Both the position numbers and the translations under genes were made by a program. 64,000 nt of DNA from Candidatus Nomurabacteria bacterium (GTDB lineage: Bacteria; Patescibacteriota; Minisyncoccia; Phycocordibacterales; UBA918): contig CP060228.1 in the NCBI GenBank assembly GCA_023898565.1, positions 156,170-220,169 of the forward strand, written 5' to 3'. The notes under the pieces were generated by a model. It saw only the letters and a list, made by a program, of their open reading frames with translations. It searched no databases and was not told where the DNA came from. Of the stretch, positions 14,846 through 64,000 are shown piece after piece; positions within the stretch are counted from its first letter, which is position 1, and each line of letters begins with the position of its first letter.

Positions 14846-14859
14846 ACAATTTTTCTTTA

Positions 14860-29047: not shown

Positions 29048-29085
29048 AAAAAAATTTCTTTAAAAATTTTTTAAAGAAATTTTTT
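29048..29085. promoter_or_regulatory. 38-bp AT-only near-perfect palindrome at the murB stop
   Basis: aaaaaatttcttttaaaaa | ttttttaaagaaattttta, with the dyad centre near 29066/29067. It lies between the murB 3' end and the lysine-rich gene. Confidence 0.3.
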
Positions 29086-30202: not shown

Positions 30203-30206
30203 AGTA

Positions 30207-34161: not shown

Positions 34162-34166
34162 AATTC

Positions 34167-34934: not shown

Positions 34935-34937
34935 AGC

Positions 34938-38018: not shown

Positions 38019-38030
38019 AGTAATGACTAA

Positions 38031-39182
38031 TCAAAGTTTTTGCTCAGGAACATTTTTTGACATAAACGAAATTATATTTTCAGCTCTCCTGCTCCATGTA
38101 TATTTGCTGGCCTGCTCTAGTAACTGGTTCGATACACCCGCCCTTTTTGCAATAACTTCACTAGCCACAGAAATAAAATCGCCCACATCATCAGGACTAA
38201 AAAAGTACCCTTCCTCTTTAAGCACTTCTCTAATTGATGGCAAATCAGAGGCGATTACAGGCTTCCCCATTGCCATATATTCAAATAGTTTAATTGGAGA
38301 CATGTAGTATCGATAGTGGTCAGTGTTTGGAAATGGAGCCACAAAAGCATCAGCTACGTTTAAATAACTCGCCATACTATGATGTGGAACTCTCCCGACA
38401 AAAAAGAATTTTTCTTTAACCGAATACATCTCAGCAATTCCCTGATATTCTGCGATATCTGCTTCAGACCCTCCAATCACTAAAAAAACGACCCCTGGAG
38501 GCAATTGTATCGCTGCTTCAATTAATAAACGAATTCCTTTGTCCATACCAAGCGTTTTAAGCATTCCTGCGTAACATATAATGTTTGCATCAATTGGTAT
38601 TCCAATTTTATCTCGTTTGACGGGAATAACATTAGGCGAGAACAGTTTTGGATCAAAACCGTTGGGAGCGGTTAAGACGTCAGAAACTGAAAGTCCAAAT
38701 CGGTTCACAACCTCTCTCTTCTTCCATTCGTTTGTAACTATGACAAGCCCTGCATTTTTAATGGCAGAGGTAAATAACTTCAAGTATCTCTCAGGAAAAT
38801 CATGCATTTCATAGAAGACACTTAAATAACGCCCAAAGAATAGTGCAAAAAAAATATCCCTAGTTACTACTTTCACGCCTTCGTTCTTTTTTTCCTTTCT
38901 AAAGAAGAACCAAAGTAACTGAAATAAAAATGACACTTCCAATAGGTAGTATCCAAACAACGTGTTGGGAAAAATAGTGACAATAGGTAAATAAGTAACT
39001 TTGAAATTTTTACTTACCCCATAAAATTCGAAAACATCCTCATTAAGGCTGTTTTTTCGTCTTGGAACAACCAAGTTAACCAAATGACCTTGTGCAGCAT
39101 AGGCCTCACACATTTTTGAGATTTGTAACCCATGAGCTTTTTCTGTCGGGATTCTTACATTCGCAACATAGTAAATATCCAT
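38031..39182 (-). CDS. Family 4 (GT-B) glycosyltransferase
   Basis: The C-terminal GT-B donor-binding signature is present: ...FVAPF...EYMAMGKPVIASDLPSIREVL. Confidence 0.75.
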   Translation of the reverse strand: MDIYYVANVRIPTEKAHGLQISKMCEAYAAQGHLVNLVVPRRKNSLNEDVFEFYGVSKNFKVTYLPIVTIFPNTLFGYYLLEVSFLFQLLWFFFRKEKKNEGVKVVTRDIFFALFFGRYLSVFYEMHDFPERYLKLFTSAIKNAGLVIVTNEWKKREVVNRFGLSVSDVLTAPNGFDPKLFSPNVIPVKRDKIGIPIDANIICYAGMLKTLGMDKGIRLLIEAAIQLPPGVVFLVIGGSEADIAEYQGIAEMYSVKEKFFFVGRVPHHSMASYLNVADAFVAPFPNTDHYRYYMSPIKLFEYMAMGKPVIASDLPSIREVLKEEGYFFSPDDVGDFISVASEVIAKRAGVSNQLLEQASKYTWSRRAENIISFMSKNVPEQKL

Positions 39183-39195
39183 ACGTAATTTTTAA

Positions 39196-40050
39196 TCACT
39201 CCAGCAGTGAAATTCCATATACACCAGCAACTAGACTCTTATCCTTACCAGTACTGCCTAACAAGTCAAGATTTTTGGCTTCCAGAGATTTTAACACTTC
39301 TAAACCGACCTTATCCTCAGCTACTAAACTATCATACAAGAAACGAAAAGCAGCCATATCCTTTATGAAACAAGCACCCCCTGCTCCACGACCACTCTTA
39401 TGAATCGGACTATTGTAATACGGTGACATCATAACGTCTTCGTCCATCATTTTTCTCACCGCTTCCCAGTCACCACCAGTTTTTTCACCTACCTCAAAAA
39501 GCAAATTAGAAAGAATCACTCTAAAGTAACCCTGTAGATTGTGCGCATATTTAAACAGTTCTGCCTCTTGAGCTAAAACTACGTGATTGTATTTCGACTT
39601 CGGGAACAATGACAACACTCTTTCAGCTGCCCCTTTCTGCTGCTCTGTGCTCAAAGGGTGACCAACTACATTTATAATCGGATTTGCCACATCATACGCA
39701 GCAGTCTTTTCGCACAAAAACTCAGGCGAAAATAGCACCGTAATACCTGGATACTTTTCTTGCAGTTTTTTTGTAGTGCCAGGCAGAATGGTTGATTTAA
39801 TAACGGCCACCGCTCCCTCAGTAACTAGCGCAAGAACTTCTTCGACAATACTATAATCGAAGCCCACAGGAGTGGTTGGTGTGGGGACGGCGATAAAAAC
39901 CACATCACATTCGGAGATCTTTTCCTCATTATGTACATACTCAGACTCTACAGAGTATCGAACCACCTCATAACCACGGTGTTCAAAATTATCAGCAATA
40001 TTTTTCCCGACAAAACCTTGTCCAATGCAACCGATTTTCATATACTTCAT
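39196..40050 (-). CDS. UDP-glucose/GDP-mannose dehydrogenase family protein, short form (C-terminal UDP-binding domain absent)
   Basis: MKIGCIGQGFVGKN is the NAD Rossmann motif, CDVVFIAVPTP is present, and GGACFIKD matches the catalytic GGxCxxKD. Only about 50 aa follow the catalytic Cys, so the usual C-terminal domain of about 100 aa is missing. Confidence 0.5.
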   Translation of the reverse strand: MKYMKIGCIGQGFVGKNIADNFEHRGYEVVRYSVESEYVHNEEKISECDVVFIAVPTPTTPVGFDYSIVEEVLALVTEGAVAVIKSTILPGTTKKLQEKYPGITVLFSPEFLCEKTAAYDVANPIINVVGHPLSTEQQKGAAERVLSLFPKSKYNHVVLAQEAELFKYAHNLQGYFRVILSNLLFEVGEKTGGDWEAVRKMMDEDVMMSPYYNSPIHKSGRGAGGACFIKDMAAFRFLYDSLVAEDKVGLEVLKSLEAKNLDLLGSTGKDKSLVAGVYGISLLE

Positions 40051-40142
40051 ATTAACACTCTAAATTTATTTTTAGTTACAACCAAAAGAATCAGGTGGCT
40101 TTTTAAAAATAAGTCAACAAAAAGCTCTTTAATTTAAACTAA

Positions 40143-40859
40143 TCAAACTTTCCTATATTCACTATTTTCTTTTACAAAGACAATATCAATCATTTTCAGC
40201 ACACCATTTTTATATGAATGTCCACCGAAGAAATCAAATACGACAAACGAGTTTTGTTTCATAAAACTAACGATAGTTGCAAAATCACTCGGGGTTGAAA
40301 CGCTACCTAGTGGATTAATCCAAGACTCCAACAAAACCACATCACACAATGCTAGAGTTTTAGTCGCCCCCCTCAAGACATCCATTTCAGCCCCCTCGAC
40401 ATCAATTTTAAGAAATATATTACCTTTAATATGATATTTTTCGCACAATGAATCGAGTTTCTTAACCTCTTTCTTAATAACACTAGAAGATTCACGATTG
40501 GCATATTTTGATGACAATCGACCGTTTTTATTTTCATAAAAATCAACAGTCCCATCCTCCGCGCCGCAGAAACAATTTTCAACATTAACAGTAGACATAT
40601 ATTGCTTTTCAAGCACATCCAGTGACTCACTATACCGAGAATCTGCCTCTACCAATAAGTAGTTATAATGTTTGAACGGGAAAGCATTGATTAACTCTGG
40701 CGTACCATCAGCAACACCAATGTCAATGACCCAATCTGGTTTTGATATTAACGTACTTAAAAACAAGAGTCCTTCACAATAAGGCTTCGCGGGAGCATGG
40801 TAATTAGTAATCCTTTTACCAAAATATCTGAATACTTTTTTGGTCATTTCTTTAATCAT
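40143..40859 (-). CDS. FkbM-family methyltransferase
   Basis: WVIDIGVADGTPELINAFPFKHYNYLLVEADSRY ... IDVEGAEMDVLRGA is the Methyltransf_21 pattern. Confidence 0.7.
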   Translation of the reverse strand: MIKEMTKKVFRYFGKRITNYHAPAKPYCEGLLFLSTLISKPDWVIDIGVADGTPELINAFPFKHYNYLLVEADSRYSESLDVLEKQYMSTVNVENCFCGAEDGTVDFYENKNGRLSSKYANRESSSVIKKEVKKLDSLCEKYHIKGNIFLKIDVEGAEMDVLRGATKTLALCDVVLLESWINPLGSVSTPSDFATIVSFMKQNSFVVFDFFGGHSYKNGVLKMIDIVFVKENSEYRKV

Positions 40860-40880
40860 ATGTATAACAATATCATTCGC

Positions 40881-41528
40881 TTATTTTGAAATTTTAAATA
40901 AGTAGCCCAATACATATTTATTACGCAAAGGTCTTCTCAACATAAAATACAGCCAATCAAGGCCATAGAATATAATCAAAAATACTGGCCTTAAAAATAG
41001 CGGCAAGCTTAAATTAAACATTTGAAATGAAGCAATGAAAGGACCCTCCTCAATTGGTATAATTTCTGTACACCTTGCTCCAGCACATTCAAATATTTTC
41101 CGCAACGATTCATCTGTATATCTAAAAAAATCAGAATGATCGGGGTGGTACCACATCAAAAACGGAACGAAACCTATAAGTTGTCCGTCATTTTTTGTTA
41201 TTCTAACCACCTCGTTTGCAATATGCTGATAATTAAATATGTGCTCCATTACGTTTAAAAAAAGTACAGTGTCGTACGAATTATCTACAGCAGGAAGAGT
41301 ATCGGTTTCAAAATTTACATTGTTTCCTGATTTTAAATCGAAGGTTTCAAACGTCACTCCTTCTTTCCTAGGAATAAATGAAAGGTATGATGATTTTCGA
41401 CCGCCGCCAATATCAATTGTTTTCCCTTTCAACTCTTCTTTCAAAAGTGCAAAATTAAGGTAAGCACGCGTTACACTTTTCCCACCACTAACTTCCATCA
41501 ATAAAAATTTAAATTTTGATAAATTCAT
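40881..41528 (-). CDS. Class I SAM-dependent methyltransferase
   Basis: KTIDIGGGRKSSYLSFIPRKEGVTFETFD..YDTVLFLNVMEHI is Methyltransf_11-like. Confidence 0.65.
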   Translation of the reverse strand: MNLSKFKFLLMEVSGGKSVTRAYLNFALLKEELKGKTIDIGGGRKSSYLSFIPRKEGVTFETFDLKSGNNVNFETDTLPAVDNSYDTVLFLNVMEHIFNYQHIANEVVRITKNDGQLIGFVPFLMWYHPDHSDFFRYTDESLRKIFECAGARCTEIIPIEEGPFIASFQMFNLSLPLFLRPVFLIIFYGLDWLYFMLRRPLRNKYVLGYLFKISK

Positions 41529-42532
41529 ACTTCAATTAATATTTTAGGTATTAGTTTCTCCAAACTATGAAATTCATTCACAAAGCCGATTTTTTTTTCT
41601 TCGATTGAGTTTCTTTCATCAAGGAATTTTATTATTTCATTAGAAAAATCTTTTTTATTTACAACTTGAGCAGCGCCGAGTTGCAAAGAGTTTGTGCCCT
41701 CAGCCATAGAGACCACAGGCAAGCCACAAGCCATCGCTTCGAGCACCGCCTTATCTAAGCTACCATTTTTTGCCGCCGTAACAAAAACTTTTGCTCTATT
41801 TAAAACGGCAGGCAATGAATTTTGATCGACTTTTCCAAGAAAATGAACTTTGTTCTCTAGTCCCTTTTTCGCAATACAACTTTTTAATCTTTCCAAATAC
41901 CTTTTTTCTGATTCAGTGACAGCCAATCCAACAATCGCCAAAGAAGCACTCGTCTTTTTGTTAACTAAGTTCAACACGTCGACAAGTACCAAAAGATTTT
42001 TAGATTCCGTAATTCTACCAACTGTAATCAGGTCAGTATCCTTTTCAATCTTTTGAGGCTTGAACAAATTAGTATCAATTCCGTGTCCAGTAACTACCAA
42101 TTTGTCACTAATTAGACGAAAACTTTCAACTGAGCCACTATAAATGGTATCTGCTAATTTCTCGGCTAAACGAAGTGAAAGGGGCACACTTCCGTGCATA
42201 TACCAAAAACCAATTCTTTTTCCTAAAATACGCCAAAGTGAGGCCCCTAAAATTACATAAATTTGATTCATGTGTACAAAAACTCGATCGTACTCATGCC
42301 GCAGACTCCAGATATACTTATAGAAACGCCACACATAGGTAAATCTCCCCTTCCCATCCTCTTTACCCAGGGAATGAACTGTGACATTGCTAGGCAAATC
42401 AAAATCACCTTGCCGCAAGCAAATGACATGTAGATGATCACAATGTTTCGCAAACTCTGCAATCCAACGATGGAAAAAGCCAAGCACTGGATGCTGCTTG
42501 TCTACCACCTGTGTAACGATAAGTAACTTCAT
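41525..42532 (-). CDS. Family 4 glycosyltransferase
   Basis: It has a GT-B fold: the N-terminus MKLLIVTQVVDKQHPVLGFFHRWIAEF and the C-terminus EAMACGLPVVSMAEG. It is the last gene of the AT-rich island. Confidence 0.7.
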   Translation of the reverse strand: MKLLIVTQVVDKQHPVLGFFHRWIAEFAKHCDHLHVICLRQGDFDLPSNVTVHSLGKEDGKGRFTYVWRFYKYIWSLRHEYDRVFVHMNQIYVILGASLWRILGKRIGFWYMHGSVPLSLRLAEKLADTIYSGSVESFRLISDKLVVTGHGIDTNLFKPQKIEKDTDLITVGRITESKNLLVLVDVLNLVNKKTSASLAIVGLAVTESEKRYLERLKSCIAKKGLENKVHFLGKVDQNSLPAVLNRAKVFVTAAKNGSLDKAVLEAMACGLPVVSMAEGTNSLQLGAAQVVNKKDFSNEIIKFLDERNSIEEKKIGFVNEFHSLEKLIPKILIEV

Positions 42533-52613: not shown

Positions 52614-53999
52614 TTATTTTGAGTCGGTAAAAAAGGCGCTTTCAGCTGGTTTTGCTGGGCGCGGCGCCACGAGCACACCAAACGTGCCGACTACCAACAA
52701 TGCTCCAAAGGCATAGTATGGCCACGACTCACCGCCTGCTCGTGGCACCGCGCCTGCCGGTGATTGCGACGGCGCAGCAGTGACTTCACTCACCTCAACA
52801 GACTGAGCTAACGGAAACTCTGTGGACTTCTCTGGCATCTCATCACGTATCACTGGATAAAAAGTCACCGCACTATCAGCATACGCAAGTTCAATTTCAT
52901 TCTCTGTTTGCAGCTGCTTGGGAAGCTTGAGTGCCACACTCTCACCTTGTGCGTCGTACACCGCCAGCACCATATCAGTACTACCAATACGTTTTTTTGA
53001 GAGTGTAATGGTCTGATTCGGCAAGAGAATTGTTCGCGGCGGCAACAGCACCTCCTTTGCACCCACTACGCGATACCCAGACAAATCAAGTTCGTACGGC
53101 GAGTCATTATTGATTTGCAAATCACCCACCGAGTTGGTGGTAAGCGACAACGCAACCGGCAGCACCGTAATCGTGTGGCGCGCAATTTGTTCTTGCCGCT
53201 TAAAGCTAGCATACAAAACTACCGCGTACGTTCCTGGGTGCGTAAAATAGTGCGTCGTCTCACTCCCGCTACTCACTGACCCGTCGCCAAAATTCCACTC
53301 ATACAAAAGAGAGTCAATCAAATGATCCCCGATGCCGGAAGCGCTACTTAAAAAAGTGATATCCTGATTCACATACACCGTCTTTGGTGCACTAATTGCC
53401 AATTCCAAAGTGATGCCTGGTAAAACTAATTTTGTTTCAGTTACCTCAACCGGCTTCGCGAGTGGCCCACCATCAGTTTTTCGGACGGAGGCGGATTCAG
53501 ACTTCGCTTGGGCTACTTGTATCTCAGTTGTCGTAATTCCTCGCCCAGGAGTGGCTGCCGCTGTCACCCAGCCACTTGCGGTGTACTGCGCCGTTTCCTT
53601 CGTTACATTATCGCCTCCAATATTTTCCCAATCTTCTCCCCCACTCACTTGATCAACCAGACTCCCATCAACCCTAGCAAGACTCAAGGTCGCACCGGTG
53701 TTTACCAATGCTCCAGTGTAAATCATAAATGCAGAACCAGGAGCAGACGCATCACTACTGCGCTCTAAAACCACATAGCTGTCAGCTGCAATCACACCGC
53801 TCAACGTGATATCAAGATTCACACCATCATTCACATGCCACCCTGTAACGTCTATTGCCGCTCCATCATTATGCAACTCTATCCACTCATAATTCGCAGA
53901 CTCAGCCGAGCCCATCCAAGCTACTTCACTGATTGAAACCGCAGCTTGGACAGCCGTCGGAAACATACCTGTAAACAAGACCAACACCACCCGCCACAT
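52614..53999 (-). CDS. Secreted/anchored protein with a lamin-tail domain (LTD) and a PKD domain
   Basis: It has a signal peptide. The LTD is ISEVAWMGSAESANYEWIELHNDGAAIDVTGWHVNDG, and the PKD domain is YEWNFGDGSVSSGSETTHYFTHPGTYAVVL. The C-terminal hydrophobic anchor is YYAFGALLVVGTFGVLVA. Confidence 0.6.
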   Translation of the reverse strand: MWRVVLVLFTGMFPTAVQAAVSISEVAWMGSAESANYEWIELHNDGAAIDVTGWHVNDGVNLDITLSGVIAADSYVVLERSSDASAPGSAFMIYTGALVNTGATLSLARVDGSLVDQVSGGEDWENIGGDNVTKETAQYTASGWVTAAATPGRGITTTEIQVAQAKSESASVRKTDGGPLAKPVEVTETKLVLPGITLELAISAPKTVYVNQDITFLSSASGIGDHLIDSLLYEWNFGDGSVSSGSETTHYFTHPGTYAVVLYASFKRQEQIARHTITVLPVALSLTTNSVGDLQINNDSPYELDLSGYRVVGAKEVLLPPRTILLPNQTITLSKKRIGSTDMVLAVYDAQGESVALKLPKQLQTENEIELAYADSAVTFYPVIRDEMPEKSTEFPLAQSVEVSEVTAAPSQSPAGAVPRAGGESWPYYAFGALLVVGTFGVLVAPRPAKPAESAFFTDSK

Positions 54000-54005
54000 A
54001 GTTAC

Positions 54006-56066
54006 CTACTGGAATGGCGACCGGCCTTCAGGTGATTCTCTAAGCAGCTTACGAACTGTTGCGATATCAACACCAACATCACCAGACTCCTTAGTAAATG
54101 ATTTTACCTGTGCAGTTGATGACACCTCAGCACCTGACACAGGAATGGGTTTATCTTTACGGTACTCCAATACCACGCGCCTGGCATCGGCAGCTAGAGT
54201 ATTAGCCGGCTGTACTGGTGGCACAATTGATTCTGTTGATGTCGTAGAAGGAGTTGAGACAGATTCAGGTCTCGGAGCTGGCGCTGAAATCGTTTGTGTA
54301 GCAGAATCACTTGGCTGAACACTTTTTAGGGCATCAGCCAAAGCCATGCGAAGTGGTGATGCATCTTCTGATTTCTGTGGCCTTGGCTGCAGCTGCTCTT
54401 TCTTATCGCTATACTTATTTCTATTTCTAGCTGTCACTTCATTTTGTTTTTGGGAAGAGCCGGCTGCCGGCTCTTTTGGTTGTTCTGAAGTCTTTTGCTC
54501 TGCTTGCTTCGCTTCTTTTTTATCAGTATCAGAATCACTCGCCATCTTGGCAAGAATTTGGCGCAAATCATCTGGGCTTTTCTCAGGCGGCCGCTTGCGC
54601 TCATCGGAGCGCACGTCATGTTGCGAATCCCTGCTTCGCGGTGCCGCACTACCACGAGACTGACTGTTGCCAGCATTGTTTCCGAATCCTCCACTGTTGT
54701 TGCCTGAACGCTTTTGCCCACCAGCTCCGCCGCCTGGCTTTTTATCAAATCTCTTCGGTTCTTCGGTACGCTCCGGTGTGTGCAGCTCTGCCACGATCTT
54801 TTCTACTGCCTCACGCTCATTGCCGTATAGTCCTCGACTCGATTCCACCACCATCTCCCGACACGACACCTGCGGCATTGGCACCGGCGGGAGCGTCTTA
54901 GCAGAAAACGGCTGCGAACCAATCCCATCAATCATAAGCGTGAGGTAAATCTGCGCAAAGCCCAAGTTCACTAAGTCAGTCGCCTCAAAGCGTGGCGCGA
55001 AGACTGTTTCGAGCACTTCGGCATCGAACGGACCGACCCGAAATGCAATCGTGGTACCCACGTTTCCAAACACCGCGTTGCGCACGTCTTCCTCCATCTG
55101 CTCGATGTACTGGTGTGCAATGATGAGATTGAGGTGATATTTACGTGCCTCAGAAAGAATATTGGCGAAAGTAGCGTTTGCAAATGACTGAAACTCGTCG
55201 ACGTAAAAATAGAAGTTTGGCATCTGCTTCATCTGCGCTACCGGCAAATCGGCGCGACTCATTGCTGCCAAGTAAATACGCGTGGTGAGCATTGACCCTA
55301 ATAGATTGGCATTGGTTTCACCGATCAATCCTTTTGAAAGGTTCATAATGAGAATTTTCTTCTCATCCATGAGCTTTCGAATATCAAAGCTTGAATGTGG
55401 CTGCCCGATAATGTTACGAATGAGCGGATTGCCTGTAAACTGACCGATCTTATTTTGAATGGCTGGCAGTGCTTCAGCAGTGAAGCGGTCAGTGTAGTTG
55501 GCGAATTCATCCACCCAAAATGCCTTCACCGCTGGGTCTTGAATGTAGTCCACCACCTTCTTACGAAACTCCTTATCGACAAACAAGCGATTTACTGACA
55601 AGAGTGTAGTGTCTGGATACTCAATGAGTGCCAAGAGCGCATTGGTAAGGATGTACTCCATGCGCGCACTCCAGGCATCAACCCAAATCTTTTTGAAGGT
55701 CGACATGAGCCCAGACACCACCAAGTGCCGCTTGTCCGGACCAACGTCTTCCATGACGTTAAATGAAATTGGATGGTCTAAATCAAACGGCGCAAAATAT
55801 ACCACGTCCTGTACGCGATGTTCTGGCACATACTCAAGCAGGGTTTCAGCGGCGGAGCCGTGCGGATCAATGAAAGCCATCCCTTCACCATTTTGGATGT
55901 CTTGCGCGGCCATGTTTTCGAGCAAGGTGGACTTACCCATACCGGTCTTTCCCACCACGTACATGTGACGCTGACGATCCTTCGCCTTAATACCAAAAGC
56001 CACCTCCTGACCTCGAGCGTCAGTCTTAGCGAAAAAGGTAATCTTTTCCGGATCAAAAGCTGTCAT
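54006..56066 (-). CDS. TraD/TrwB/VirD4-like AAA ATPase (type IV secretion DNA-binding-domain family) with a long disordered C-terminal tail
   Basis: The N-terminus ...RQRHMYVVGKTGMGKSTLLENMAAQDIQNGEGMAFIDPHG has a Walker A motif and a coupling-protein-like context. FYVDEFQSF is a Walker B-like segment and IIAHQYIEQM is present. The last roughly 250 aa are low-complexity and rich in K, E, S, Q, P and G. No N-terminal TM helices are present. Confidence 0.5.
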   Translation of the reverse strand: MTAFDPEKITFFAKTDARGQEVAFGIKAKDRQRHMYVVGKTGMGKSTLLENMAAQDIQNGEGMAFIDPHGSAAETLLEYVPEHRVQDVVYFAPFDLDHPISFNVMEDVGPDKRHLVVSGLMSTFKKIWVDAWSARMEYILTNALLALIEYPDTTLLSVNRLFVDKEFRKKVVDYIQDPAVKAFWVDEFANYTDRFTAEALPAIQNKIGQFTGNPLIRNIIGQPHSSFDIRKLMDEKKILIMNLSKGLIGETNANLLGSMLTTRIYLAAMSRADLPVAQMKQMPNFYFYVDEFQSFANATFANILSEARKYHLNLIIAHQYIEQMEEDVRNAVFGNVGTTIAFRVGPFDAEVLETVFAPRFEATDLVNLGFAQIYLTLMIDGIGSQPFSAKTLPPVPMPQVSCREMVVESSRGLYGNEREAVEKIVAELHTPERTEEPKRFDKKPGGGAGGQKRSGNNSGGFGNNAGNSQSRGSAAPRSRDSQHDVRSDERKRPPEKSPDDLRQILAKMASDSDTDKKEAKQAEQKTSEQPKEPAAGSSQKQNEVTARNRNKYSDKKEQLQPRPQKSEDASPLRMALADALKSVQPSDSATQTISAPAPRPESVSTPSTTSTESIVPPVQPANTLAADARRVVLEYRKDKPIPVSGAEVSSTAQVKSFTKESGDVGVDIATVRKLLRESPEGRSPFQ

Positions 56067-56083
56067 TTGTATTTAGTATACCA

Positions 56084-57616
56084 CTAGCGTCCAAAGCGAT
56101 TTTGGACATACTCAAGCAAAGTCACAACATCGCCAGTCCGATCATCAGAACCAAGAATAATCACAATCAAAGTACGGACCTGACCCTGCAGCTCAACCTC
56201 GTGCAGTGAAATGGATGTTTTGCCAGCAGCCAAGGTTTCACCCACTTTACCGCCAACGAAATTATCCATATCTTCTACTTCATTGAAATTGATGAGGCCA
56301 TCAAACTCACCACCAACATACGCACTTGGGATTTTATCATTAGCAGTTATTTCTAAAATAAAGCTGCGATTACTACGAATGTACTTGGTCAACCGAAACA
56401 AATCACCAAGAGAAGAAACATTGTCAGCACTCAAACCCGATGGGTCAGCGAAGCGCGAATGCATCATGCCCAGCTGGCGCGCTTTTGCATTCATTGCTTC
56501 GATAAATTCAACCCGACCCATTTCACCAGCAATTGTTTCAGCTGCTTCGTTGGAAGATTCAACCAAGAGCAACTGTAATAAGCTGTACATTGATACACTG
56601 CTACGCTCAGACAAACGTGGGATAAGTGAGTGAACAAAGGTTGGTGACGTAATCTGCACACGACCATCAAGGTCGAGCTCTTCCGCTGTCACTACTGCGG
56701 TCATCAACTTAGTGAGCGATGCGATAGGTGCCTCTGCATCTAAGTCTGTTGCAGCCAGAATGGTGCCGTTATCGATATCCGCGATGAAGTAGTGCGGCGT
56801 GTCTAGATTTGGTACCTGTGGCTCATACACAAACACATCACGCTTCTGCTCTAACTTGGCGCGCACCAAGACCGGCAACCCTGCAGCAACATCTCGATAC
56901 AGCTGCTCAGCCTTATCATTAGCCAGCCGAATTCCACCACCAACAAAATCATCGGGAACTGCACCGCCTCCTGGATAGGTTGGTATACCATGAATAATGT
57001 AATTGCCACCAAACTTTAATTGCCAAGGAAATTCAACCTGCGCAATATTACTAAACTCCTCAATATCACGAGCTTCAATCTGGTACAAACCAGACGGTGT
57101 CTCCCACCAAGAACCAACTTCACCAACTGCAAGCACATCAGCACTAAAATACAAAACACCCTTCTTAAACAAGCGAACCTGCTTAGTACTTAAATCGACT
57201 TCAATAAAACTAAGTCCTGCCTCAATGAACGAATCTCTCGTACTGGCAAAAAATGACTCCTGCGCTAGAGCCGGTTGTGGACCGTACTCAAGATCAACAC
57301 TCACCTGACTGTACGGATTCACCACCGTTACGACTGGAGCTGCTAGATTTCGCTCTGAAACCAATCCGTATCCAGTCGCTCCCAGAATAAAAAGCGCACA
57401 TACGGCCATGATTGTAACAATCACTCGTGAAGCAGGTAAAAGCAACGGTGTCGGCCGAGCACTTTGTGGCGTAAAGGTGTGTTTAGGATGTACGGTTGCT
57501 TTTGAGCCAGTTTGCGGAATAAGCATCCCCTTTCCATTCTTAGGCACATCATCACTATACGAAAACAGCTTTACAGACGAATCTGGCTTTTTTGACATAC
57601 CACTATCATACCGCAC
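56084..57616 (-). CDS. Membrane-anchored peptidoglycan enzyme: YkuD (L,D-transpeptidase)-like domain apparently lacking the catalytic Cys, plus a C-terminal serine DD-carboxypeptidase (S11) domain
   Basis: It has an N-terminal TM segment. The YkuD-like segment is NYIIHGIPTYPGGGAVPDDFVGGGIRLANDKAEQLY, where the conserved (S/T)xGC(I/V)R motif appears as GGGIR. The C-terminal domain has SLTKLMT (SxxK), VESSNEA (SxN-like) and GKTS (KTG-like) motifs. Confidence 0.5.
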   Translation of the reverse strand: MRYDSGMSKKPDSSVKLFSYSDDVPKNGKGMLIPQTGSKATVHPKHTFTPQSARPTPLLLPASRVIVTIMAVCALFILGATGYGLVSERNLAAPVVTVVNPYSQVSVDLEYGPQPALAQESFFASTRDSFIEAGLSFIEVDLSTKQVRLFKKGVLYFSADVLAVGEVGSWWETPSGLYQIEARDIEEFSNIAQVEFPWQLKFGGNYIIHGIPTYPGGGAVPDDFVGGGIRLANDKAEQLYRDVAAGLPVLVRAKLEQKRDVFVYEPQVPNLDTPHYFIADIDNGTILAATDLDAEAPIASLTKLMTAVVTAEELDLDGRVQITSPTFVHSLIPRLSERSSVSMYSLLQLLLVESSNEAAETIAGEMGRVEFIEAMNAKARQLGMMHSRFADPSGLSADNVSSLGDLFRLTKYIRSNRSFILEITANDKIPSAYVGGEFDGLINFNEVEDMDNFVGGKVGETLAAGKTSISLHEVELQGQVRTLIVIILGSDDRTGDVVTLLEYVQNRFGR

Positions 57617-57648
57617 GAACCAACCTTATTTTGACACTAGCTCACACT

Positions 57649-59007
57649 TTACAAGGCCAGTCCGGTACTCGTGGCGGCCGGCAACAACGCCGCTTTGGTG
57701 TAGATATTAGATGGTGCCCAGATCATCCAGCTTTCCACCCCAGCGTCATAGCTCGCTTGAATCTGCGTACGCACATCAGCCGCGTCATAATCGCCACCAT
57801 AATCAAAGTCCTGGATCCACGTGCGGAGCTTTTCTGGGCCATATACTGGCTTCGTATACTTCCCGGTCGCAAGCGGCGTACCACTCGCATTGTAGGTAAA
57901 GAGCGGCTCGTGCAAGAAGCCATTCATTGGTGTCGTACTAGCTGCCAAGCGATCGACTCCGGTCTTCATGGCGTGATAGACCACTTCATATGGGTGATCG
58001 TTTGGATCCCCCAGACCAAGGTAATTATTCGGGTAGTGTGATGGATACACCATCGGCGCGATGAAATCAAAATATGGCACGGCCCGATCTTGCACTTGCC
58101 CAATCGAGAGGTCGTCGTAATTCGTAGTTGTCATACCAAAAAGATCAGCCGAGGTATACGGAGTGCTTGAAGCGCGACCAGTATTAGTATGTTTTTTAGC
58201 AGAAAATTTCGACTCGTCGTCGAGCTGCTCGTTGAGATATTTGAAAAACGCTTCGAGATTGGCCTGCCTGTCCATTCCATACTGCCCAGCTACGCTTTGT
58301 GGATAGTATGTATCGCTCATGTTGCCGTCTGACGGATAGCGTACGTAATCGAAGTTTAGTTCATCAAAGCCGATGTTGTATGAATCTACTGAGAGCTGAA
58401 TGATGTGATCCCAATATGGCTTCGAAGCCACATCAATAAACGACAACCCTTTCCCGTCTTTCCAAACTGTCTGCTGATCACTACGTAGCACTGCTAGTTC
58501 CGGATGACTCGGCGCATAGTATGGATCTTGAAAGACCGTAATGCGACCAATCACATAGATGTCATGGTCATGCAACATCGTAATCAGCTCTGGCATATCA
58601 CGCGTACCACAACGCGCGTCTACCCAAGCAGATTGCCACTCAGTGCTTTCTGGTGGGAATGAAATGGTACCTGAGTAATCCTTAATATCAATCACGACAG
58701 AATTTATCTCCGTCGCGCGAATCAGCTCCACCAGCTTCGTACGAAACGACGGCGTTCCGGCTACACACGAAGTCATATAGATAGCTTTCACCGCTTCAGG
58801 GAGTGGTACATGCTGCACTACTGGCCGTACGTCAACTGGCTCCGGCAGCGGTTCGGTTACCATCGCAGGCCCAGCAGTAGTGGTGGTTGAGCTAGACACT
58901 GCGCTTGCAGTCTGCTCAACGGTCACATCAAAAAAAGTAACCGGCACAAAACTCAAGACCGCAAATGCTACTGCAGCGAGAACCAGTGGTGTGCCATATG
59001 TATGCAT
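57649..59007 (-). CDS. Secreted putative glycoside hydrolase-like TIM-barrel protein (DUF4015/GHL-type)
   Basis: It has a signal peptide. The region ...ELITMLHDHDIYVIGRITVFQDPYYA...GFDELNFDYVRYPSDG fits the GHL/DUF4015 pattern. The assignment is tentative. Confidence 0.4.
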   Translation of the reverse strand: MHTYGTPLVLAAVAFAVLSFVPVTFFDVTVEQTASAVSSSTTTTAGPAMVTEPLPEPVDVRPVVQHVPLPEAVKAIYMTSCVAGTPSFRTKLVELIRATEINSVVIDIKDYSGTISFPPESTEWQSAWVDARCGTRDMPELITMLHDHDIYVIGRITVFQDPYYAPSHPELAVLRSDQQTVWKDGKGLSFIDVASKPYWDHIIQLSVDSYNIGFDELNFDYVRYPSDGNMSDTYYPQSVAGQYGMDRQANLEAFFKYLNEQLDDESKFSAKKHTNTGRASSTPYTSADLFGMTTTNYDDLSIGQVQDRAVPYFDFIAPMVYPSHYPNNYLGLGDPNDHPYEVVYHAMKTGVDRLAASTTPMNGFLHEPLFTYNASGTPLATGKYTKPVYGPEKLRTWIQDFDYGGDYDAADVRTQIQASYDAGVESWMIWAPSNIYTKAALLPAATSTGLAL

Positions 59008-59010
59008 ACC

Positions 59011-59253
59011 TTATTGTAGCGTAGAATCTTCAAAAAGCCGCTCGGTCGTTTCAACAAACGAATCTGTGCCGCGCTCGCCATTACCAAGGTCGAGCTGTCG
59101 TAAGTAGACCGCGCGCCGAAGCGCATAGCCAATCAGTATTAAAAGAATACCAAACCCAAAAATAATATATTGTCTCCAAGCTAACGGAATTCCGAGATAC
59201 GGCACAATCGTGAGTACAATCCCTGCAACAAAAACCAGCGTTTCTTTCGTCAT
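59011..59253 (-). CDS. Small two-TM membrane protein (80 aa from the ATG; the track ORF starts at an upstream TTG)
   Basis: MTKETLVFVAGIVLTIVPYLGIPLAWRQYIIFGFGILLILIGYAL... has no homology assignment. Confidence 0.4.
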   Translation of the reverse strand: MTKETLVFVAGIVLTIVPYLGIPLAWRQYIIFGFGILLILIGYALRRAVYLRQLDLGNGERGTDSFVETTERLFEDSTLQ

Positions 59254-59316
59254 ACGTAAATACAAGAGGCAGTATAACGCAAAATGCGAAATGATGCGAA
59301 ATGTGTATAAATCAGA

Positions 59317-60927: not shown

Positions 60928-62223
60928 TCACTCCACCAACATTTTTGCCAACTCTGTGACACTCCCCGCTCCCATTACCAGCAACACCTCATGCGGTGTA
61001 AGCGTCTGCTTTAAGTACTGCTCAGCCGCAGCAAAATCTTCTACAAACTGCACATTTTTATTAAACTCGAGCGCGCGCACTGACAGCTCACGACTGGTCA
61101 CGCCACTGCTATTTTCTTCACGTGCGGCGTAAATCGGCAGTAGTAGCACCTCATCTGCTCGTCCAAACACCTTGGCAAACTGCTCAAACAACACCTTGGT
61201 ACGTGTGTACGTGTGCGGCTGAAACACTACAATTACTCGACGATCGGGGTAAAGCTCACGAGCTCCTTCGATCGATGCGAACATTTCGGTTGGATGATGT
61301 GCGTAGTCATCATACACAAGCGCGCCATTGCAATCTCCCTTGTATTCAAACCGACGCCACGTTCCGGCAAACTGAAGTGCTGCATCGTTAATGGTCTCGC
61401 TTTCAATTTTCTCATGCCTAGCGGCAGCAAACGCTGCGGCAGCATTGAGACGATTATGTACACCAGGAATCTTAAGTGCCAATTGTGGATCGAAATAGTC
61501 CATGTAGTCCACCACCTCGACCGGCGACCCTTCGATAATCGGCTTAACATTTGGATCGCTCGTATCCGCTACTACTACACCATTTTCATTTACTTGTGAC
61601 ACCAATGTACGAAATGCCTCCTGCACTTCTGCAAGATTTTTGTAGCAATCAACATGCTCAAGTTCAACGTTTGTAATTACTAAAATATCTGGCCGCAAAC
61701 TTAAAAAGTCTCGCTTGTATTCACACGCCTCTACGATTGCGTATTTGGTTTTCCCTGCGCGGTAGTTACTCTTTGTCTTTGCTCGTAGCGACCCGATCAC
61801 GGCAGTTGGATCTTTGCCTGCTGCTTCAAAAATATCAGTAAGCATAGCGGTAGTTGTGGTCTTGCCATGTGTACCAGCTACCGCAATTAAATAGTATGGA
61901 TTCATCGCCAGGCCGAGCGCTTCGAAATAATTCATCATCGGCACTCCAAGCTTTCTGGCTGCTTTCATTTCTTCGTGATCTGGCGACATTGCCTCGGTGT
62001 AGACCACCAACTGAATGTCGTCGGAGATATTCTCTGCTACCTGTTCACCAAAAATCTGTACCCCTTCGGCATCAAGTGCTTTTGTCAGCGGCGAAAGTGA
62101 GCGATCTGAACCACTTACTATTTTTTTCTCAGTCAAAAAATGACGAGCCAAAGCGGACATGCCGATGCCGCCAACGCCAATGAAGTGAATCCGCGTAATC
62201 TGATTAATATCTATGCTTGACAT
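60928..62223 (-). CDS. murC: UDP-N-acetylmuramate--L-alanine ligase
   Basis: The start was trimmed to MSSIDINQITRIHFIGVGGIGMSALARHF (ATG whose complement is cat at 62221-62223). Mur ligase central and C-terminal domains are present (GTHGKTTTTAML). Confidence 0.9.
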   Translation of the reverse strand: MSSIDINQITRIHFIGVGGIGMSALARHFLTEKKIVSGSDRSLSPLTKALDAEGVQIFGEQVAENISDDIQLVVYTEAMSPDHEEMKAARKLGVPMMNYFEALGLAMNPYYLIAVAGTHGKTTTTAMLTDIFEAAGKDPTAVIGSLRAKTKSNYRAGKTKYAIVEACEYKRDFLSLRPDILVITNVELEHVDCYKNLAEVQEAFRTLVSQVNENGVVVADTSDPNVKPIIEGSPVEVVDYMDYFDPQLALKIPGVHNRLNAAAAFAAARHEKIESETINDAALQFAGTWRRFEYKGDCNGALVYDDYAHHPTEMFASIEGARELYPDRRVIVVFQPHTYTRTKVLFEQFAKVFGRADEVLLLPIYAAREENSSGVTSRELSVRALEFNKNVQFVEDFAAAEQYLKQTLTPHEVLLVMGAGSVTELAKMLVE

Positions 62224-62282
62224 ACCTCGAACAAAGCATAATATCACAAATAGACCATTCTTTACATTGCCAGGAGATTGAG

Positions 62283-63023
62283 ATGATTGTTTATGAACGA
62301 GACTTAGTTGCACCTCCTTATAAATCCCAAGCGACAGTCGCTTTGTATCATGGCCAGTCGACCAGTAGTAATCCTCGCTATCTGGCAGCGCAAAAAGGAG
62401 CACGCTTAAAAAACATCTGCTTTATTCGGGCTGCCGCCACATTCGGACAACCGGGTTTTGGAGCAGTGAAGGAGCCAGTGTATGGACCAGTCGAACAATC
62501 AGGGCACGATATCGCAGCTGACGGCGTCCTCTTAAGCGAGGCTGGCAGTGCTGCTATCATCCGCACCGGCGACTGCCCAGCTGTAGCGCTGTTTGCGCCG
62601 GCTCATGGGAAGGCGGTACTTCTGCATGCCGGCCGAGCGGCTCTCACTCCACGTGGCAACTCGGACGAATTAAGCAATATCATTACCTCAGGTTTCAGCC
62701 GACTGACAAAAGAACTGCCTGCGTCACGAGTGATTGCGCTCATTACCGGATCAATCTGTGCCAACCACTTTCCGCACGACCTGCCAGAAGCGCGTGCGCT
62801 CGTCGAGCCTTTCACCGTATTTGGCGAACACGCCTTCATCGACTATGCGACCGGCAGGCTTAATCTGGTGGCGATTATTCGTCAGCAGCTTATTGACCTC
62901 GGCGTGGCTGAATCAGACCTCCACCATGATGGACTCTGTACACACGAACACGCGAAACTTGCCAGCAATCGACGTGATCCAGGGGTCAAGTTGAGAAACC
63001 CAGTAATTCTCGTTCTTCGCTAA
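62283..63023 (+). CDS. pgeF: Peptidoglycan editing factor PgeF (YfiH/DUF152, Cu-oxidase_4 family)
   Basis: The start was set at MIVYERDL (ATG at 62283) with an SD (aggag, 62272-62276) 6 nt upstream. TGDCPAVALFAP...AVLLHAGRAAL matches the (A/T)DC.PV...HAGWRG core. Confidence 0.75.
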   Translation: MIVYERDLVAPPYKSQATVALYHGQSTSSNPRYLAAQKGARLKNICFIRAAATFGQPGFGAVKEPVYGPVEQSGHDIAADGVLLSEAGSAAIIRTGDCPAVALFAPAHGKAVLLHAGRAALTPRGNSDELSNIITSGFSRLTKELPASRVIALITGSICANHFPHDLPEARALVEPFTVFGEHAFIDYATGRLNLVAIIRQQLIDLGVAESDLHHDGLCTHEHAKLASNRRDPGVKLRNPVILVLR

Positions 63024-63053: not shown

Positions 63054-64000
63054 CTATTCTGATTTATTTACACAGGCCACAAACGCGTCGTTACGCTCGT
63101 ACTCGTTTTTGAAGAGCCCAAACGAGGCGAAGCCGGGTGAGAAGAGCAGCACGTCGCCGGGCTGGCCTACGGCCAGCCCGGCCGCCACCGCCGCTTCCAT
63201 ACTCTCCACCACCTCTGCTTCAAGCAAGCCTTTAATTACATCAGTACCCGTGCCTGGTAGCAAAACCACCTTTTTGCAGTAGCGACCAATTGCTTCAAGC
63301 AATTCAGCCGGATCAATATTTTTATTGGCTCCACCAGCAATCAGCACCACATTTTTATCATCAGCATTGCCGACTGCCTCTAAACCACGAATGGTCGCCG
63401 CCGGCGTGGTGGCATTGTTGTCGTTATAAATCTTCACCCCATCGCGCTCACCAAGATACTCTAACCGCCCCGGCACACCTGGGAACGACGCCAAGCCCGC
63501 AAAAATTTCTTCGTCTTCCAGACTGACCGCTTTCAGAGCTTCGTACGCTAGAGCAGCGTTTAAGCGATTGTGTGCTCCTGGCATTGAAAGAAGCGAGTCC
63601 TCAGGAATTACCGATTCATCAGCCAAAATCACTTCTTGCCCAATCTCCACCCCAGCCAACTGTTTGGCACGTTCGAAGACTGCTGGTGTGGTGATAAACA
63701 CCCCACTCTCTTCTTGATGTGTGAATATATTGGCCTTATCTTCAAAGTAGTGCCGCATTGCCTCCTCCTTGCTCACTCCATCGGCACCGTAGTAATTGAG
63801 ATGATCTTCCATGAAGTTGGTAAAAACCGCAATCTGCGGCGACATCTTCGCCCACCCAAACCCTTGAAGCTGCCAGGAATCAAGCTCCATCACACAGAGT
63901 GAGTCTTCTTTCACTTGTTTCAAAAGCTGCAAGTTGGACAACCCTCGCACATTGCCTCCCAGCAAAATTTCTTCTCCGGTCGCTTGTGTCAGTACGTGAT
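63054..64000 (-). CDS. murD: UDP-N-acetylmuramoylalanine--D-glutamate ligase, C-terminal about 300 aa (5' end beyond the window)
   Basis: ...CVMELDSWQLQGF... (compare ELSSFQL), AHNRLNAALAYEA and GVPGRLEYLGERDGVKIYNDNNATTPAAT are MurD central and C-terminal motifs. The reading frame continues open to position 64000. Confidence 0.85.
   Translation of the reverse strand, partial: HVLTQATGEEILLGGNVRGLSNLQLLKQVKEDSLCVMELDSWQLQGFGWAKMSPQIAVFTNFMEDHLNYYGADGVSKEEAMRHYFEDKANIFTHQEESGVFITTPAVFERAKQLAGVEIGQEVILADESVIPEDSLLSMPGAHNRLNAALAYEALKAVSLEDEEIFAGLASFPGVPGRLEYLGERDGVKIYNDNNATTPAATIRGLEAVGNADDKNVVLIAGGANKNIDPAELLEAIGRYCKKVVLLPGTGTDVIKGLLEAEVVESMEAAVAAGLAVGQPGDVLLFSPGFASFGLFKNEYERNDAFVACVNKSE

What the first reader, a model, noticed from the sequence alone, without database searches (positions are those of the whole stretch)
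56084..57616. Fusion of a YkuD-like domain lacking its catalytic Cys with an S11 DD-carboxypeptidase
The YkuD-like segment aligns well to L,D-transpeptidases around the His (IIHGIP), but the nucleophile position reads GGGIR instead of (S/T)HGC(I/V)R. This implies a catalytically dead L,D-transpeptidase-like module, possibly retained for peptidoglycan stem binding. It is fused to an intact-looking serine DD-carboxypeptidase with SLTKLMT, SSN and KTS motifs. Such a pseudo-Ldt-DacA fusion would be an unusual peptidoglycan-trimming enzyme.
Basis: inference. Interest (0 to 1): 0.5.

Follow-up and report, generated by a model that had tools for sequence, protein, structure and literature searches.

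The report
Dead L,D-transpeptidase fused to DD-peptidase
This gene encodes a membrane-anchored cell-wall enzyme of tiny "Patescibacteria" in which one of two fused catalytic domains (the L,D-transpeptidase) has lost its active-site cysteine while the other (a penicillin-binding-type DD-peptidase) stays intact; relatives at the same genomic spot keep both domains active or kill the other one instead, so it is a natural experiment in how these bacteria remodel their wall.

Summary
ORF 56084-57616(-) encodes a bitopic membrane protein made of a cytoplasmic tail, a TM helix, a YkuD-fold domain and a Peptidase_S11 domain. It is 510 aa as the maximal ORF; the likely start is the ATG at 57598, giving 504 aa.

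**S11 half.** It keeps SxxK and SxN. The true box is K457-V458-G459 (K[V/I]G in all 120 homologs). The domain is a single-domain PBP7/DacB type, not DacA-like.

**New context.**
- The YkuD-S11 fusion is widespread, and every member with a taxon label here is from Patescibacteria.
- Most relatives keep SGGC[IV]R.
- At the same syntenic slot, orthologs are Ldt+/S11+, Ldt+/S11-dead or, as here, Ldt-dead/S11+. None has both domains dead.
- The Cys was lost several times by one reconstruction, each time to Gly.
- Accessory pocket residues have decayed in the query clade.

**Verdict.** This is a pseudo-Ldt pedestal carrying an active DD-peptidase, and a new variant of known kinds. Interest is moderate.

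The parts
56084..57616 (-). Maximal ORF (GTG start, 510 aa) of the YkuD*-S11 fusion protein. The probable true start is the ATG at 57596-57598 (M7), giving 504 aa.
   Evidence: Family alignment starts at M7. P0001 is 100% identical and 504 aa.
57509..57574 (-). Cytoplasmic N-terminal tail carrying a conserved short motif, LFSYxDDxPxxGxGxLIP (residues 15-36). D23, P25, G30, I33 and P34 are invariant. The segment is predicted disordered.
   Evidence: Invariant columns. pLDDT is below 55. The motif is in 104/115 family members, 1/110 Cys-bearing cluster representatives and 5/11 other Cys-less representatives. It is also present in some Cys-bearing species representatives.
57350..57433 (-). Single transmembrane helix (residues about 62-89), N-in topology. 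It contains the protein's only cysteine, C73.
   Evidence: AF2 helix at 62-89. Kyte-Doolittle peak at 60-84. The N-tail has 8 K+R against 3 D+E.
57212..57343 (-). Conserved juxtamembrane beta-beta-alpha extension (residues 92-135) that packs onto the YkuD domain.
56861..57211 (-). YkuD-fold pseudo-L,D-transpeptidase domain (residues 136-252).
56990..56992 (-). His209 (codon CAT), the retained catalytic-His equivalent in I-H-G. It is invariant.
56933..56941 (-). G226-G227-G228 (GGT GGT GGA), which replaces the H/G-G-C of the (S/T)xGC nucleophile box. G228 occupies the Cys position.
   Evidence: alignment to solved Ldts; family census; codons.
56087..56821 (-). Peptidase_S11 (penicillin-binding, DD-peptidase) domain, residues 266-510. 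It is a single domain with no PBP5-type domain II.
   Evidence: Pfam 95.9 bits. PDB sequence hits are PBP7-type 6azi/6muq, DacB 3mfd and Rv2911 4rye. The Foldseek top 50 are all S11.
56708..56719 (-). SxxK box, S300-L-T-K303 (nucleophile Ser and general-base Lys).
   Evidence: Present in 119/120 homologs. Aligned to PBP7, DacB and Rv2911.
56549..56557 (-). SxN box, S354-S-N356.
   Evidence: Present in 120/120 homologs. Aligned.
56240..56248 (-). True KTG-box equivalent, K457-V458-G459 (within GGKVGET). The Thr/Ser position is Val.
   Evidence: Aligned to GGKTGYT of 3mfd and 4rye. KVG in 110 and KIG in 10 of 120 homologs.
56213..56221 (-). This is not the KTG box. It lies on the following beta-strand, and residue 466 is Gln in most homologs.
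   Evidence: QTS in 103, KTS in 15 of 120 homologs. Alignment.
57649..59007 (-). Upstream neighbour, a DUF4015 putative glycoside hydrolase. It is syntenic with the fusion gene in most related loci.
   Evidence: Pfam 256 bits. Synteny.
54006..56066 (-). Downstream neighbour 17 nt away, a TrwB/VirD4-like P-loop ATPase with a long low-complexity tail. It is the most stably linked neighbour.
   Evidence: Pfam. Synteny.
52614..53999 (-). Next gene in the likely operon, an LTD/PKD-domain surface protein. It is also syntenic.
   Evidence: Pfam. Synteny.

Best explanation
The gene encodes a type-II (N-in) bitopic membrane protein of a Parcubacteria/Paceibacteria-type organism. Its only working catalytic centre is the C-terminal S11 penicillin-binding domain.

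That domain most likely acts as a DD-peptidase on the organism's own peptidoglycan. It would remove the terminal D-Ala from pentapeptide stems and/or cut 4-3 cross-links.

The YkuD-fold domain between the membrane and the S11 domain is a pseudoenzyme. It descends from an active L,D-transpeptidase with an SGGC[IV]R motif. In the bifunctional ancestor, that enzyme used the tetrapeptide stems made by the fused DD-carboxypeptidase to form 3-3 cross-links.

In the query's clade the nucleophile Cys became Gly, and the accompanying Ser and other pocket residues then decayed. The fold stayed under purifying selection. It now serves as a non-catalytic pedestal or docking module that holds and orients the S11 domain above the membrane.

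**Shown:**
- domain architecture, folds and membrane topology;
- absence of any possible Cys nucleophile;
- conservation of the S11 catalytic residues;
- secondary and apparently recurrent loss of Cys;
- positional orthology with both-active and S11-dead versions.

**Inferred:**
- that the S11 domain is enzymatically active, and its substrate;
- the pedestal or docking role of the pseudo-domain;
- the DD-CPase-to-Ldt 'assembly line' logic of the ancestor.
For: **Architecture and folds**
- Pfam finds YkuD and Peptidase_S11.
- AF2 models are confident: full length with both domains at pLDDT about 90, and the N-domain alone at pLDDT 86, pTM 0.80.
- The Foldseek top 50 for the full-length model are all S11 enzymes.

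**Dead Ldt**
- Cys442 of Ldtfm and the Cys of LdtMt5 align to G228.
- [GAN]GG[IV][RK] is the usual state among the 120 closest homologs, none has the Cys, and 102 of them have no Cys anywhere.
- The query's only Cys is C73 in the TM helix.
- Ten positions that are at least 80% conserved in divergent Cys-bearing relatives are relaxed in the family.
- Cys+ proteins keep 7.2 of 9 accessory residues, against 3.4 of 9 in Cys- proteins.
- S225 is lost in every Cys-less subclade.

**Still constrained**
- The YkuD* domain has 0.57 mean identity, against 0.35 for the TM helix and 0.41-0.46 for the tail and linker.
- The YkuD/S11 identity ratio falls from 1.24 in Cys+ outgroups to 0.81 in the query clade.

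**S11 residues**
- SxxK in 119/120, SSN in 120/120, K[V/I]G in 120/120.

**Ancestry**
- 114 of the 150 best cluster representatives carry xGGC, and those tested carry S11 as well.
- The query family is nested among them.
- Parsimony gives a Cys+ root with about 6 state changes, always to Gly.
- P0131 (SGGC, S11+), P0123 (DGDC) and P0129 (SGGC, S11-dead) occupy the same RsmI-DUF4015-[X]-ATPase-LTD/PKD slot.
- Census of full-length representatives: 47-51 Ldt+S11+, 59 Ldt+S11-, 11-12 Ldt-S11+, 0 with both dead.
- hhalign confirms that the S11-dead halves are homologous.

**Functional logic and context**
- LDTs need tetrapeptide donors made by DD-carboxypeptidases (review PMC12729407).
- MurB, a MurC-like ligase and a further Mur ligase are in the window, so the organism makes peptidoglycan.
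Against: - No biochemical data exist for any family member.
- The KTG box reads KVG. The missing hydroxyl could reduce or change activity or substrate recognition, so 'active DD-peptidase' is an inference from motif conservation.
- H209, N205 and R230 of the old Ldt site remain invariant, which a pure spacer role does not obviously require.
- The inter-domain geometry is not resolved (full-length pTM 0.49), so a pedestal role is not shown structurally.
- The trees are neighbour-joining on divergent sequences. The number of independent losses and the Fisher test (p about 3e-4) are not phylogenetically corrected.
- Classifying distant members as 'S11-dead' depends on alignment. It was checked in detail only for P0126 and P0150, with supporting Pfam scores and motif readings for P0129.
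Confidence: 0.62

Rival explanations
1. The YkuD-like domain is still an enzyme but uses non-cysteine chemistry. For example, His209 could act with another nucleophile or activated water, as reported for the serine-dependent beta-lactam turnover of the YafK-family protein Lpg1514.
For: H209, G210, N205 and R230 stay invariant after the Cys loss. The domain remains well conserved at 0.57 mean identity. There is a precedent for Cys-independent chemistry on a YkuD/YafK scaffold (PMC13400389).
Against: Gly228 cannot be a nucleophile. The neighbouring Ser225 and the conserved H187/S189/S190 positions of active relatives are variable in this clade. The positions conserved only within the family cannot be interpreted, because the family is phylogenetically narrower than the relatives, and none of them was tested as an alternative nucleophile. 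Constraint has shifted from the YkuD domain to the S11 domain.
Confidence: 0.07
2. The whole ectodomain is non-catalytic. The KVG-variant S11 domain only binds peptidoglycan or beta-lactam-like ligands, and the protein is a transmembrane sensor or adaptor. Its conserved cytoplasmic motif would signal to a partner such as the adjacent TrwB/VirD4-like ATPase.
For: The non-canonical KVG box. A conserved, disordered cytoplasmic short linear motif largely confined to this lineage. Tight, conserved linkage to a TrwB-like ATPase 17 nt downstream.
Against: Ser300, Lys303, Ser354, Asn356 and Lys457 are essentially invariant, which is the pattern expected of a working acyl-enzyme site. In the same superfamily, S11 domains under relaxed selection clearly lose these residues. 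K[V/I/N]G also occurs in relatives that keep the other S11 motifs. No Ldt-dead protein has a dead S11 domain.
Confidence: 0.12
3. The S11 domain works as a DD-transpeptidase, like the Streptomyces K15 S11 enzyme, rather than as a hydrolase. In this clade, 4-3 cross-linking by the S11 domain would have replaced the 3-3 cross-linking of the lost Ldt.
For: K15 DD-transpeptidase structures are among the fold matches (1skf and 1es3-5, TM about 0.7 on the target). The change at the KTG box could alter how the acyl-enzyme partitions, but that is inference only.
Against: The closest sequence relatives are hydrolases: PBP7/PbpG endopeptidases and DacB/Rv2911 carboxypeptidases. KVG is also present in relatives that keep an active Ldt, so it is not coupled to the Ldt loss.
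Confidence: 0.1
4. The Cys-to-Gly change is a sequencing or assembly error, or the gene is a decaying pseudogene.
For: None beyond the single-nucleotide distance between Cys and Gly codons.
Against: The ORF is intact. The same state occurs in the best 120 database homologs and in 48 of 80 species-level genomes. Both domains are under purifying selection.
Confidence: 0.01

Closest known systems
Enterococcus faecium Ldtfm (PDB 1zat, 3zg4, 6fj1) and YkuD-type L,D-transpeptidases in general
   Different: The nucleophile Cys442 is Gly228 here, His440 is Gly226 and Ser439 is Val225, so the defining (S/T)xGC box is missing. The domain sits N-terminal to a second enzyme rather than at the C-terminus.
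Cys-retaining YkuD-S11 orthologs of Patescibacteria (e.g. P0131 = MBI4086510.1 'Candidatus Kaiserbacteria'; P0271 = OGG39715.1 'Candidatus Jorgensenbacteria')
   Same: Same two-domain architecture and length. P0131 and P0123 occupy the same genomic slot. Same K[V/I]G-type S11 box in many of them.
   Different: They keep SGGC[IV]R and the accessory residues M145, K164, H187, S189/S190, F207 and D235. Most lack the cytoplasmic motif. None has been characterised experimentally.
Single-domain S11 DD-peptidases: PBP7/PbpG-type DD-endopeptidases (PDB 6azi, 6muq), B. subtilis DacB (3mfd), M. tuberculosis Rv2911/DacB2 (4rye, 4p0m), Listeria Lmo2812 (5zqa)
   Same: Best sequence and fold matches for residues 266-510. 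SxxK and SxN are conserved. No PBP5-type C-terminal domain II.
   Different: K-V-G in place of K-T-G. The domain is fused behind a TM anchor and a YkuD-fold domain. Scores are far below the NCBIfam equivalog cutoffs (90.9 against 294 for PbpG), so it is not an ortholog of any named enzyme.
E. coli PBP5/DacA
   Same: Same S11 catalytic domain family.
   Different: No domain II and no C-terminal amphipathic anchor. NCBIfam DacA score is 29.7 against a cutoff of 694. The 'DacA' label in the finding is therefore too specific.
PDB 4xxt, the Clostridium fusion of a Zn-dependent DD-carboxypeptidase-family amidase with an ErfK/YkuD-family domain
   Different: Its peptidase partner is a zinc (VanY-like) enzyme, not a serine S11 PBP. 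I know it only from its PDB title and did not examine its active site.
Functional pairing of DD-carboxypeptidase with L,D-transpeptidase (E. faecium DdcY+Ldtfm; E. coli PBP5/6a+LdtD+PBP1B)
   Same: Provides the logic of the ancestral fusion: a DD-CPase makes the tetrapeptide donor that the Ldt needs (PMC12729407).
   Different: In the known systems these are separate proteins. Here the two are fused, and in the query the second step has been lost.

Membership tests
YkuD / L,D-transpeptidase catalytic domain (PF03734) | Sequence match to the family HMM above the gathering threshold | tested here: met
   39.2 bits against a cutoff of 23.4, residues 137-251.
YkuD / L,D-transpeptidase catalytic domain (PF03734) | YkuD beta-sandwich fold | tested here: met
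YkuD / L,D-transpeptidase catalytic domain (PF03734) | Catalytic His in the phi-G-phi-H-G motif | tested here: met
   I-I-H209-G-I-P. It is invariant in the family and in Cys-bearing relatives.
YkuD / L,D-transpeptidase catalytic domain (PF03734) | Nucleophile Cys in (S/T)xGC-phi-R (motif as given in PMC12729407) | tested here: not met
   V225-G-G-G228-I-R. The Cys of Ldtfm and LdtMt5 aligns to G228. There is no Cys outside the TM helix. None of the 120 homologs has the Cys, and 102 of them have no Cys at all.
YkuD / L,D-transpeptidase catalytic domain (PF03734) | L,D-transpeptidase, L,D-carboxypeptidase or amidase activity; acylation by carbapenems | not testable with these tools
   Needs biochemistry. 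Predicted to be absent.
Peptidase S11 (PF00768; low-molecular-mass class C PBPs) | Sequence match to the family HMM above the gathering threshold, and the PBP/beta-lactamase fold | tested here: met
   95.9 bits against a cutoff of 27.6. The Foldseek top 50 are all S11 enzymes. Profile E-values reach 6e-26.
Peptidase S11 (PF00768; low-molecular-mass class C PBPs) | SxxK box (nucleophile Ser and Lys) | tested here: met
   S300-L-T-K303, present in 119/120 homologs.
Peptidase S11 (PF00768; low-molecular-mass class C PBPs) | SxN box | tested here: met
   S354-S-N356, present in 120/120 homologs.
Peptidase S11 (PF00768; low-molecular-mass class C PBPs) | K-T/S-G box | tested here: inconclusive
Lys457 and Gly459 are present and invariant, but the middle residue is Val (KVG 110, KIG 10 of 120).
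Peptidase S11 (PF00768; low-molecular-mass class C PBPs) | DD-carboxypeptidase or DD-endopeptidase activity; covalent penicillin binding | not testable with these tools
   Needs biochemistry.
DacA/PBP5-type DD-carboxypeptidase (NCBIfam NF008059 and relatives) | Equivalog-level score, a C-terminal beta-rich domain II and an amphipathic anchor | tested here: not met
   DacA scores 29.7 against a cutoff of 694, DacD 45.8 against 610, PbpG 90.9 against 294. The protein ends with the last helix of the PBP domain at residue 510.

The most novel reading that the evidence does not exclude
The locus records a fused DD-carboxypeptidase-to-L,D-transpeptidase 'assembly line' in the Patescibacteria cell envelope. 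This fusion has repeatedly collapsed into a single-activity enzyme.

Either half can die, but never both. This would imply that related Paceibacteria lineages differ in whether their walls carry 3-3 cross-links.

In the query lineage, the surviving pseudo-Ldt fold together with a newly acquired cytoplasmic short linear motif would turn the protein into a regulated, possibly partner-coupled DD-peptidase. The candidate partner is the co-transcribed TrwB/VirD4-like ATPase and LTD/PKD surface-protein machinery.
Probability: 0.25. Interest if true: 0.65.

Novelty: new variant of a known kind. Interest (0 to 1): 0.45.

Why it matters
Peptidoglycan biology of the Candidate Phyla Radiation is almost entirely inferred from annotation. 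This family is annotated as 'L,D-transpeptidase family protein', which is functionally wrong for the query clade because no nucleophile is present.

The family offers three things:
1. A correction for annotation pipelines. Presence of the YkuD HMM does not mean Ldt activity.
2. A clean natural series of positional orthologs (both active, only Ldt active, only S11 active). This could be used to test whether DD-carboxypeptidase and Ldt activities are coupled by fusion, and to predict cross-link type (3-3 versus 4-3) in uncultured lineages.
3. A bacterial cell-wall example of pseudoenzyme domain retention with graded decay of the active site.

It is not a new enzyme class, and the functional claims still need biochemistry.

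Tried and rejected
- **Single-sequence PDB search.** A phmmer search of the YkuD segment gave only E of about 1. It was replaced by a family profile, which reached E=1.4e-4.
- **Fold search with the full-length model.** It returned only S11 hits. The N-domain therefore had to be modelled alone.
- **AFDB fold search.** The afdb50 library was unavailable, so I could not check for the architecture outside Patescibacteria by structure.
- **Literature.** Searches for the fusion, for Cys-less YkuD domains and for Patescibacteria/Parcubacteria Ldts found nothing relevant. One query was malformed.
- **Taxonomy of the Ldt+/S11-dead class.** It could not be established, because the clusters carry no taxon names.
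- **Paralogs in one genome.** I could not test whether one genome carries two paralogs of different state.
- **Second YkuD-like ORF in the window.** A six-frame HMM scan of the 64-kb window found none.
- **Alternative Cys elsewhere.** Rejected. The only Cys is in the TM helix.
- **Sequencing error or pseudogene.** Rejected.
- **'KTS' as the KTG box.** Rejected.
- **Synteny as a universal feature.** Rejected. Distant members P0137, P0235 and P0165 sit in other contexts.
- **dN/dS.** Not attempted, because synonymous sites would be saturated at 50-65% amino-acid identity. Per-domain identity ratios were used instead.
Full report
**1. The observation**

The ORF is real. It runs 56084-57616 on the minus strand with a GTG start and encodes 510 aa. 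Homologs begin at the ATG six codons downstream (57598), and a 100%-identical database protein is 504 aa.

Pfam detects YkuD at residues 137-251 (39.2 bits, cutoff 23.4) and Peptidase_S11 at 266-470 (95.9 bits, cutoff 27.6).

A profile of the N-domain aligns to E. faecium Ldtfm at E=1.4e-4. In that alignment I-H-G sits on I-H421-D and v-G-G-G-I sits on S-H-G-C442-I. LdtMt5 gives the same register. So His209 is retained, Cys is Gly228, the second His is Gly226 and the Ser/Thr is Val225. The only cysteine in the protein is C73, in the TM helix.

**2. Folds and topology**

AlphaFold models both ectodomains confidently and gives a helix at residues 62-89. The N-tail is basic (8 K+R against 3 D+E), so the topology is N-in with both domains outside.

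For the full-length model, the Foldseek top 50 are all S11 enzymes.

**3. The S11 half**

SxxK (S300/K303) and SxN (S354/N356) are present and essentially invariant.

Profile alignments place GGK457-V-G459-ET on GGKTGYT of B. subtilis DacB and M. tuberculosis Rv2911. The box is K[V/I]G in all 120 close homologs, whereas residue 466 is Gln in 103 of them.

The domain lacks the PBP5 domain II. It scores far below the DacA, DacD and PbpG equivalog cutoffs. Its best relatives are single-domain PBP7/PbpG- and DacB-type enzymes. It belongs to the S11 family but is not a DacA. Carboxypeptidase versus endopeptidase activity cannot be decided from sequence.

**4. It is a family trait, and a derived one**

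- A homology search found 855 homologs. The best 120 are all about 500 aa with the same architecture, and those with names come from Kaiserbacteria, Nomurabacteria and Paceibacteria.
- None of these has the Cys, and 102 of 120 have no Cys at all.
- An exhaustive profile search with the N-domain found 927 50%-identity clusters, 404 of them at E<=1e-10.
- Of the best 150 clusters, 114 carry xGGC (mostly SGGC[IV]R). The ones tested also carry Peptidase_S11.
- Named examples are again Patescibacteria, and all 80 species-level genome hits are Patescibacteria MAGs.
- In a neighbour-joining tree the query family is a uniformly Cys-less clade nested among SGGC proteins.
- On 78 species representatives, parsimony gives a Cys-bearing root and about six state changes, always to Gly.

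**5. Decay of the old active site**

Ten positions are at least 80% conserved among the much more divergent Cys-bearing relatives but variable in the query family: M145, K164, E172, H187, S189, S190, F207, S225, C228 and D235. The fold core plus N205, H209, G210, G227 and R230 remain conserved.

The decay is graded. Small Cys-less subclades keep most accessory residues. The large query clade has lost nearly all of them. S225 is lost in every Cys-less subclade. This argues for true inactivation rather than a nucleophile swap, and for independent losses rather than reversions.

The domain is nevertheless still constrained, with mean identity 0.57 against 0.35-0.46 for the TM helix, tail and linker. 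Relative constraint has moved to the S11 domain. The YkuD/S11 identity ratio is 1.24 in Cys+ outgroups and 0.81 in the query clade.

**6. Reciprocal degeneration at one locus**

Among full-length representatives the counts are:

| State | Clusters |
|---|---|
| Ldt+ / S11+ | 47-51 |
| Ldt+ / S11-dead | 59 |
| Ldt-dead / S11+ | 11-12 |
| both dead | 0 |

Fisher's exact test gives p of about 3e-4, not corrected for phylogeny.

hhalign shows that the S11-dead halves are homologous over their full length but have lost the nucleophile box. They read GGFGQ and GTLIY where the query family has ASLTK.

The gene order RsmI, small TM protein, DUF4015, [fusion], TrwB/VirD4-like ATPase, LTD/PKD protein, epimerase, GT4s is conserved around:
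- the query and its family;
- an Ldt+/S11+ ortholog, P0131;
- a DGDC ortholog, P0123;
- an Ldt+/S11-dead ortholog, P0129.

More distant members sit in other contexts.

**7. Mechanism**

LDTs need tetrapeptide donors, and DD-carboxypeptidases supply them (PMC12729407). The ancestral fusion plausibly coupled these two steps.

In the query the second step is gone. The protein is most likely a membrane-anchored DD-peptidase whose pseudo-Ldt domain serves as a pedestal or docking module. Stem-peptide binding by the dead site is possible, since H209, N205 and R230 are retained, but it is not supported by the decay of the other pocket residues.

Rivals considered:
- non-Cys catalysis, with the precedent PMC13400389;
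- a fully non-catalytic sensor or adaptor that uses the conserved cytoplasmic motif;
- an S11 transpeptidase role.

All three are less likely, for the reasons given under the rival explanations.

**8. Novelty and score**

No paper in the searchable library describes this fusion or a Cys-less YkuD domain. Both domains belong to well-known families, and the proteins are already in databases, annotated as 'L,D-transpeptidase family protein'.

I rate it a new variant of a known kind, with interest 0.45. It is a tidy pseudoenzyme case and a useful comparative series for CPR cell-wall biology, but it has no new chemistry and no experimental support yet.

Noticed in passing
window 57509-57574 (-), residues 15-36 of the target protein: A conserved, predicted-disordered cytoplasmic motif, LFSYxDDxPxxGxGxLIP, with five invariant residues. 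It is largely confined to the lineage in which the Ldt Cys is repeatedly lost, but it arose before the loss, because some SGGC proteins such as L032, L063 and L070 have it. It looks like a docking motif for an unknown cytoplasmic partner.
   Followed up: partly
window 52614-59265 (-); also L001-L007, L090: A conserved, tightly spaced gene string: an 84-aa TM protein, DUF4015, the YkuD-S11 fusion, a TrwB/VirD4-like ATPase and an LTD/PKD surface protein, with intergenic gaps of about 6-50 nt between DUF4015 and the LTD/PKD gene. It is probably an operon shared across many Paceibacteria. Why a coupling-protein-like ATPase is linked to wall enzymes is unexplained.
   Followed up: partly
window 54006-56066 (-): The TrwB/VirD4-like ATPase has a C-terminal tail of about 280 residues that is low-complexity and rich in Ser, Pro, Gln and Lys. 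The length of this protein varies from 604 to 791 aa among orthologs.
   Followed up: no
superfamily members P0126, P0129, P0150 and others (L090 6..): A large class (about 59 clusters) of orthologous or homologous proteins has the opposite state: an intact SGGC Ldt and a degenerate S11 domain that has lost SxxK, SxN and KxG. No protein has both domains dead.
   Followed up: yes
P0236 (798 aa, metagenomic): One relative carries a third domain, PGA_cap (capsule/poly-gamma-glutamate synthesis-type metallophosphatase), after the YkuD and S11 domains.
   Followed up: no
window 32000-42500: A low-GC island (GC 0.34-0.42 against about 0.48 elsewhere). It encodes a polysaccharide flippase, GT2 and GT4 glycosyltransferases, several methyltransferases, a polysaccharide deacetylase and a UDP-glucose dehydrogenase-like protein. 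It is probably a horizontally exchanged surface-glycan cassette.
   Followed up: partly
window 11633-21054 (-): Two giant adjacent ORFs: 2064 aa with a NosD/right-handed beta-helix region, and 1070 aa with no Pfam match. They are probably large surface proteins typical of CPR episymbionts.
   Followed up: no
window 398-2149 (-), 29084-30250 (-), 60928-62403 (-), 63054-63965 (-): Other peptidoglycan genes in the window: an SLT_2 lytic-transglycosylase-like protein, MurB, a MurC-like ligase and a further Mur ligase ORF (ligase middle and C-terminal domains only). So the organism evidently builds and remodels a murein wall. No tRNA genes were found in the 64 kb.
   Followed up: partly
window 57599-57616 (-) and homologs P0009, P0012, P0099: The six codons upstream of the likely ATG start (…RYDSG-M) are also translatable and similar (RYDxxM) in a few homologs' gene calls. 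This may reflect a conserved 5' leader rather than coding sequence.
   Followed up: no
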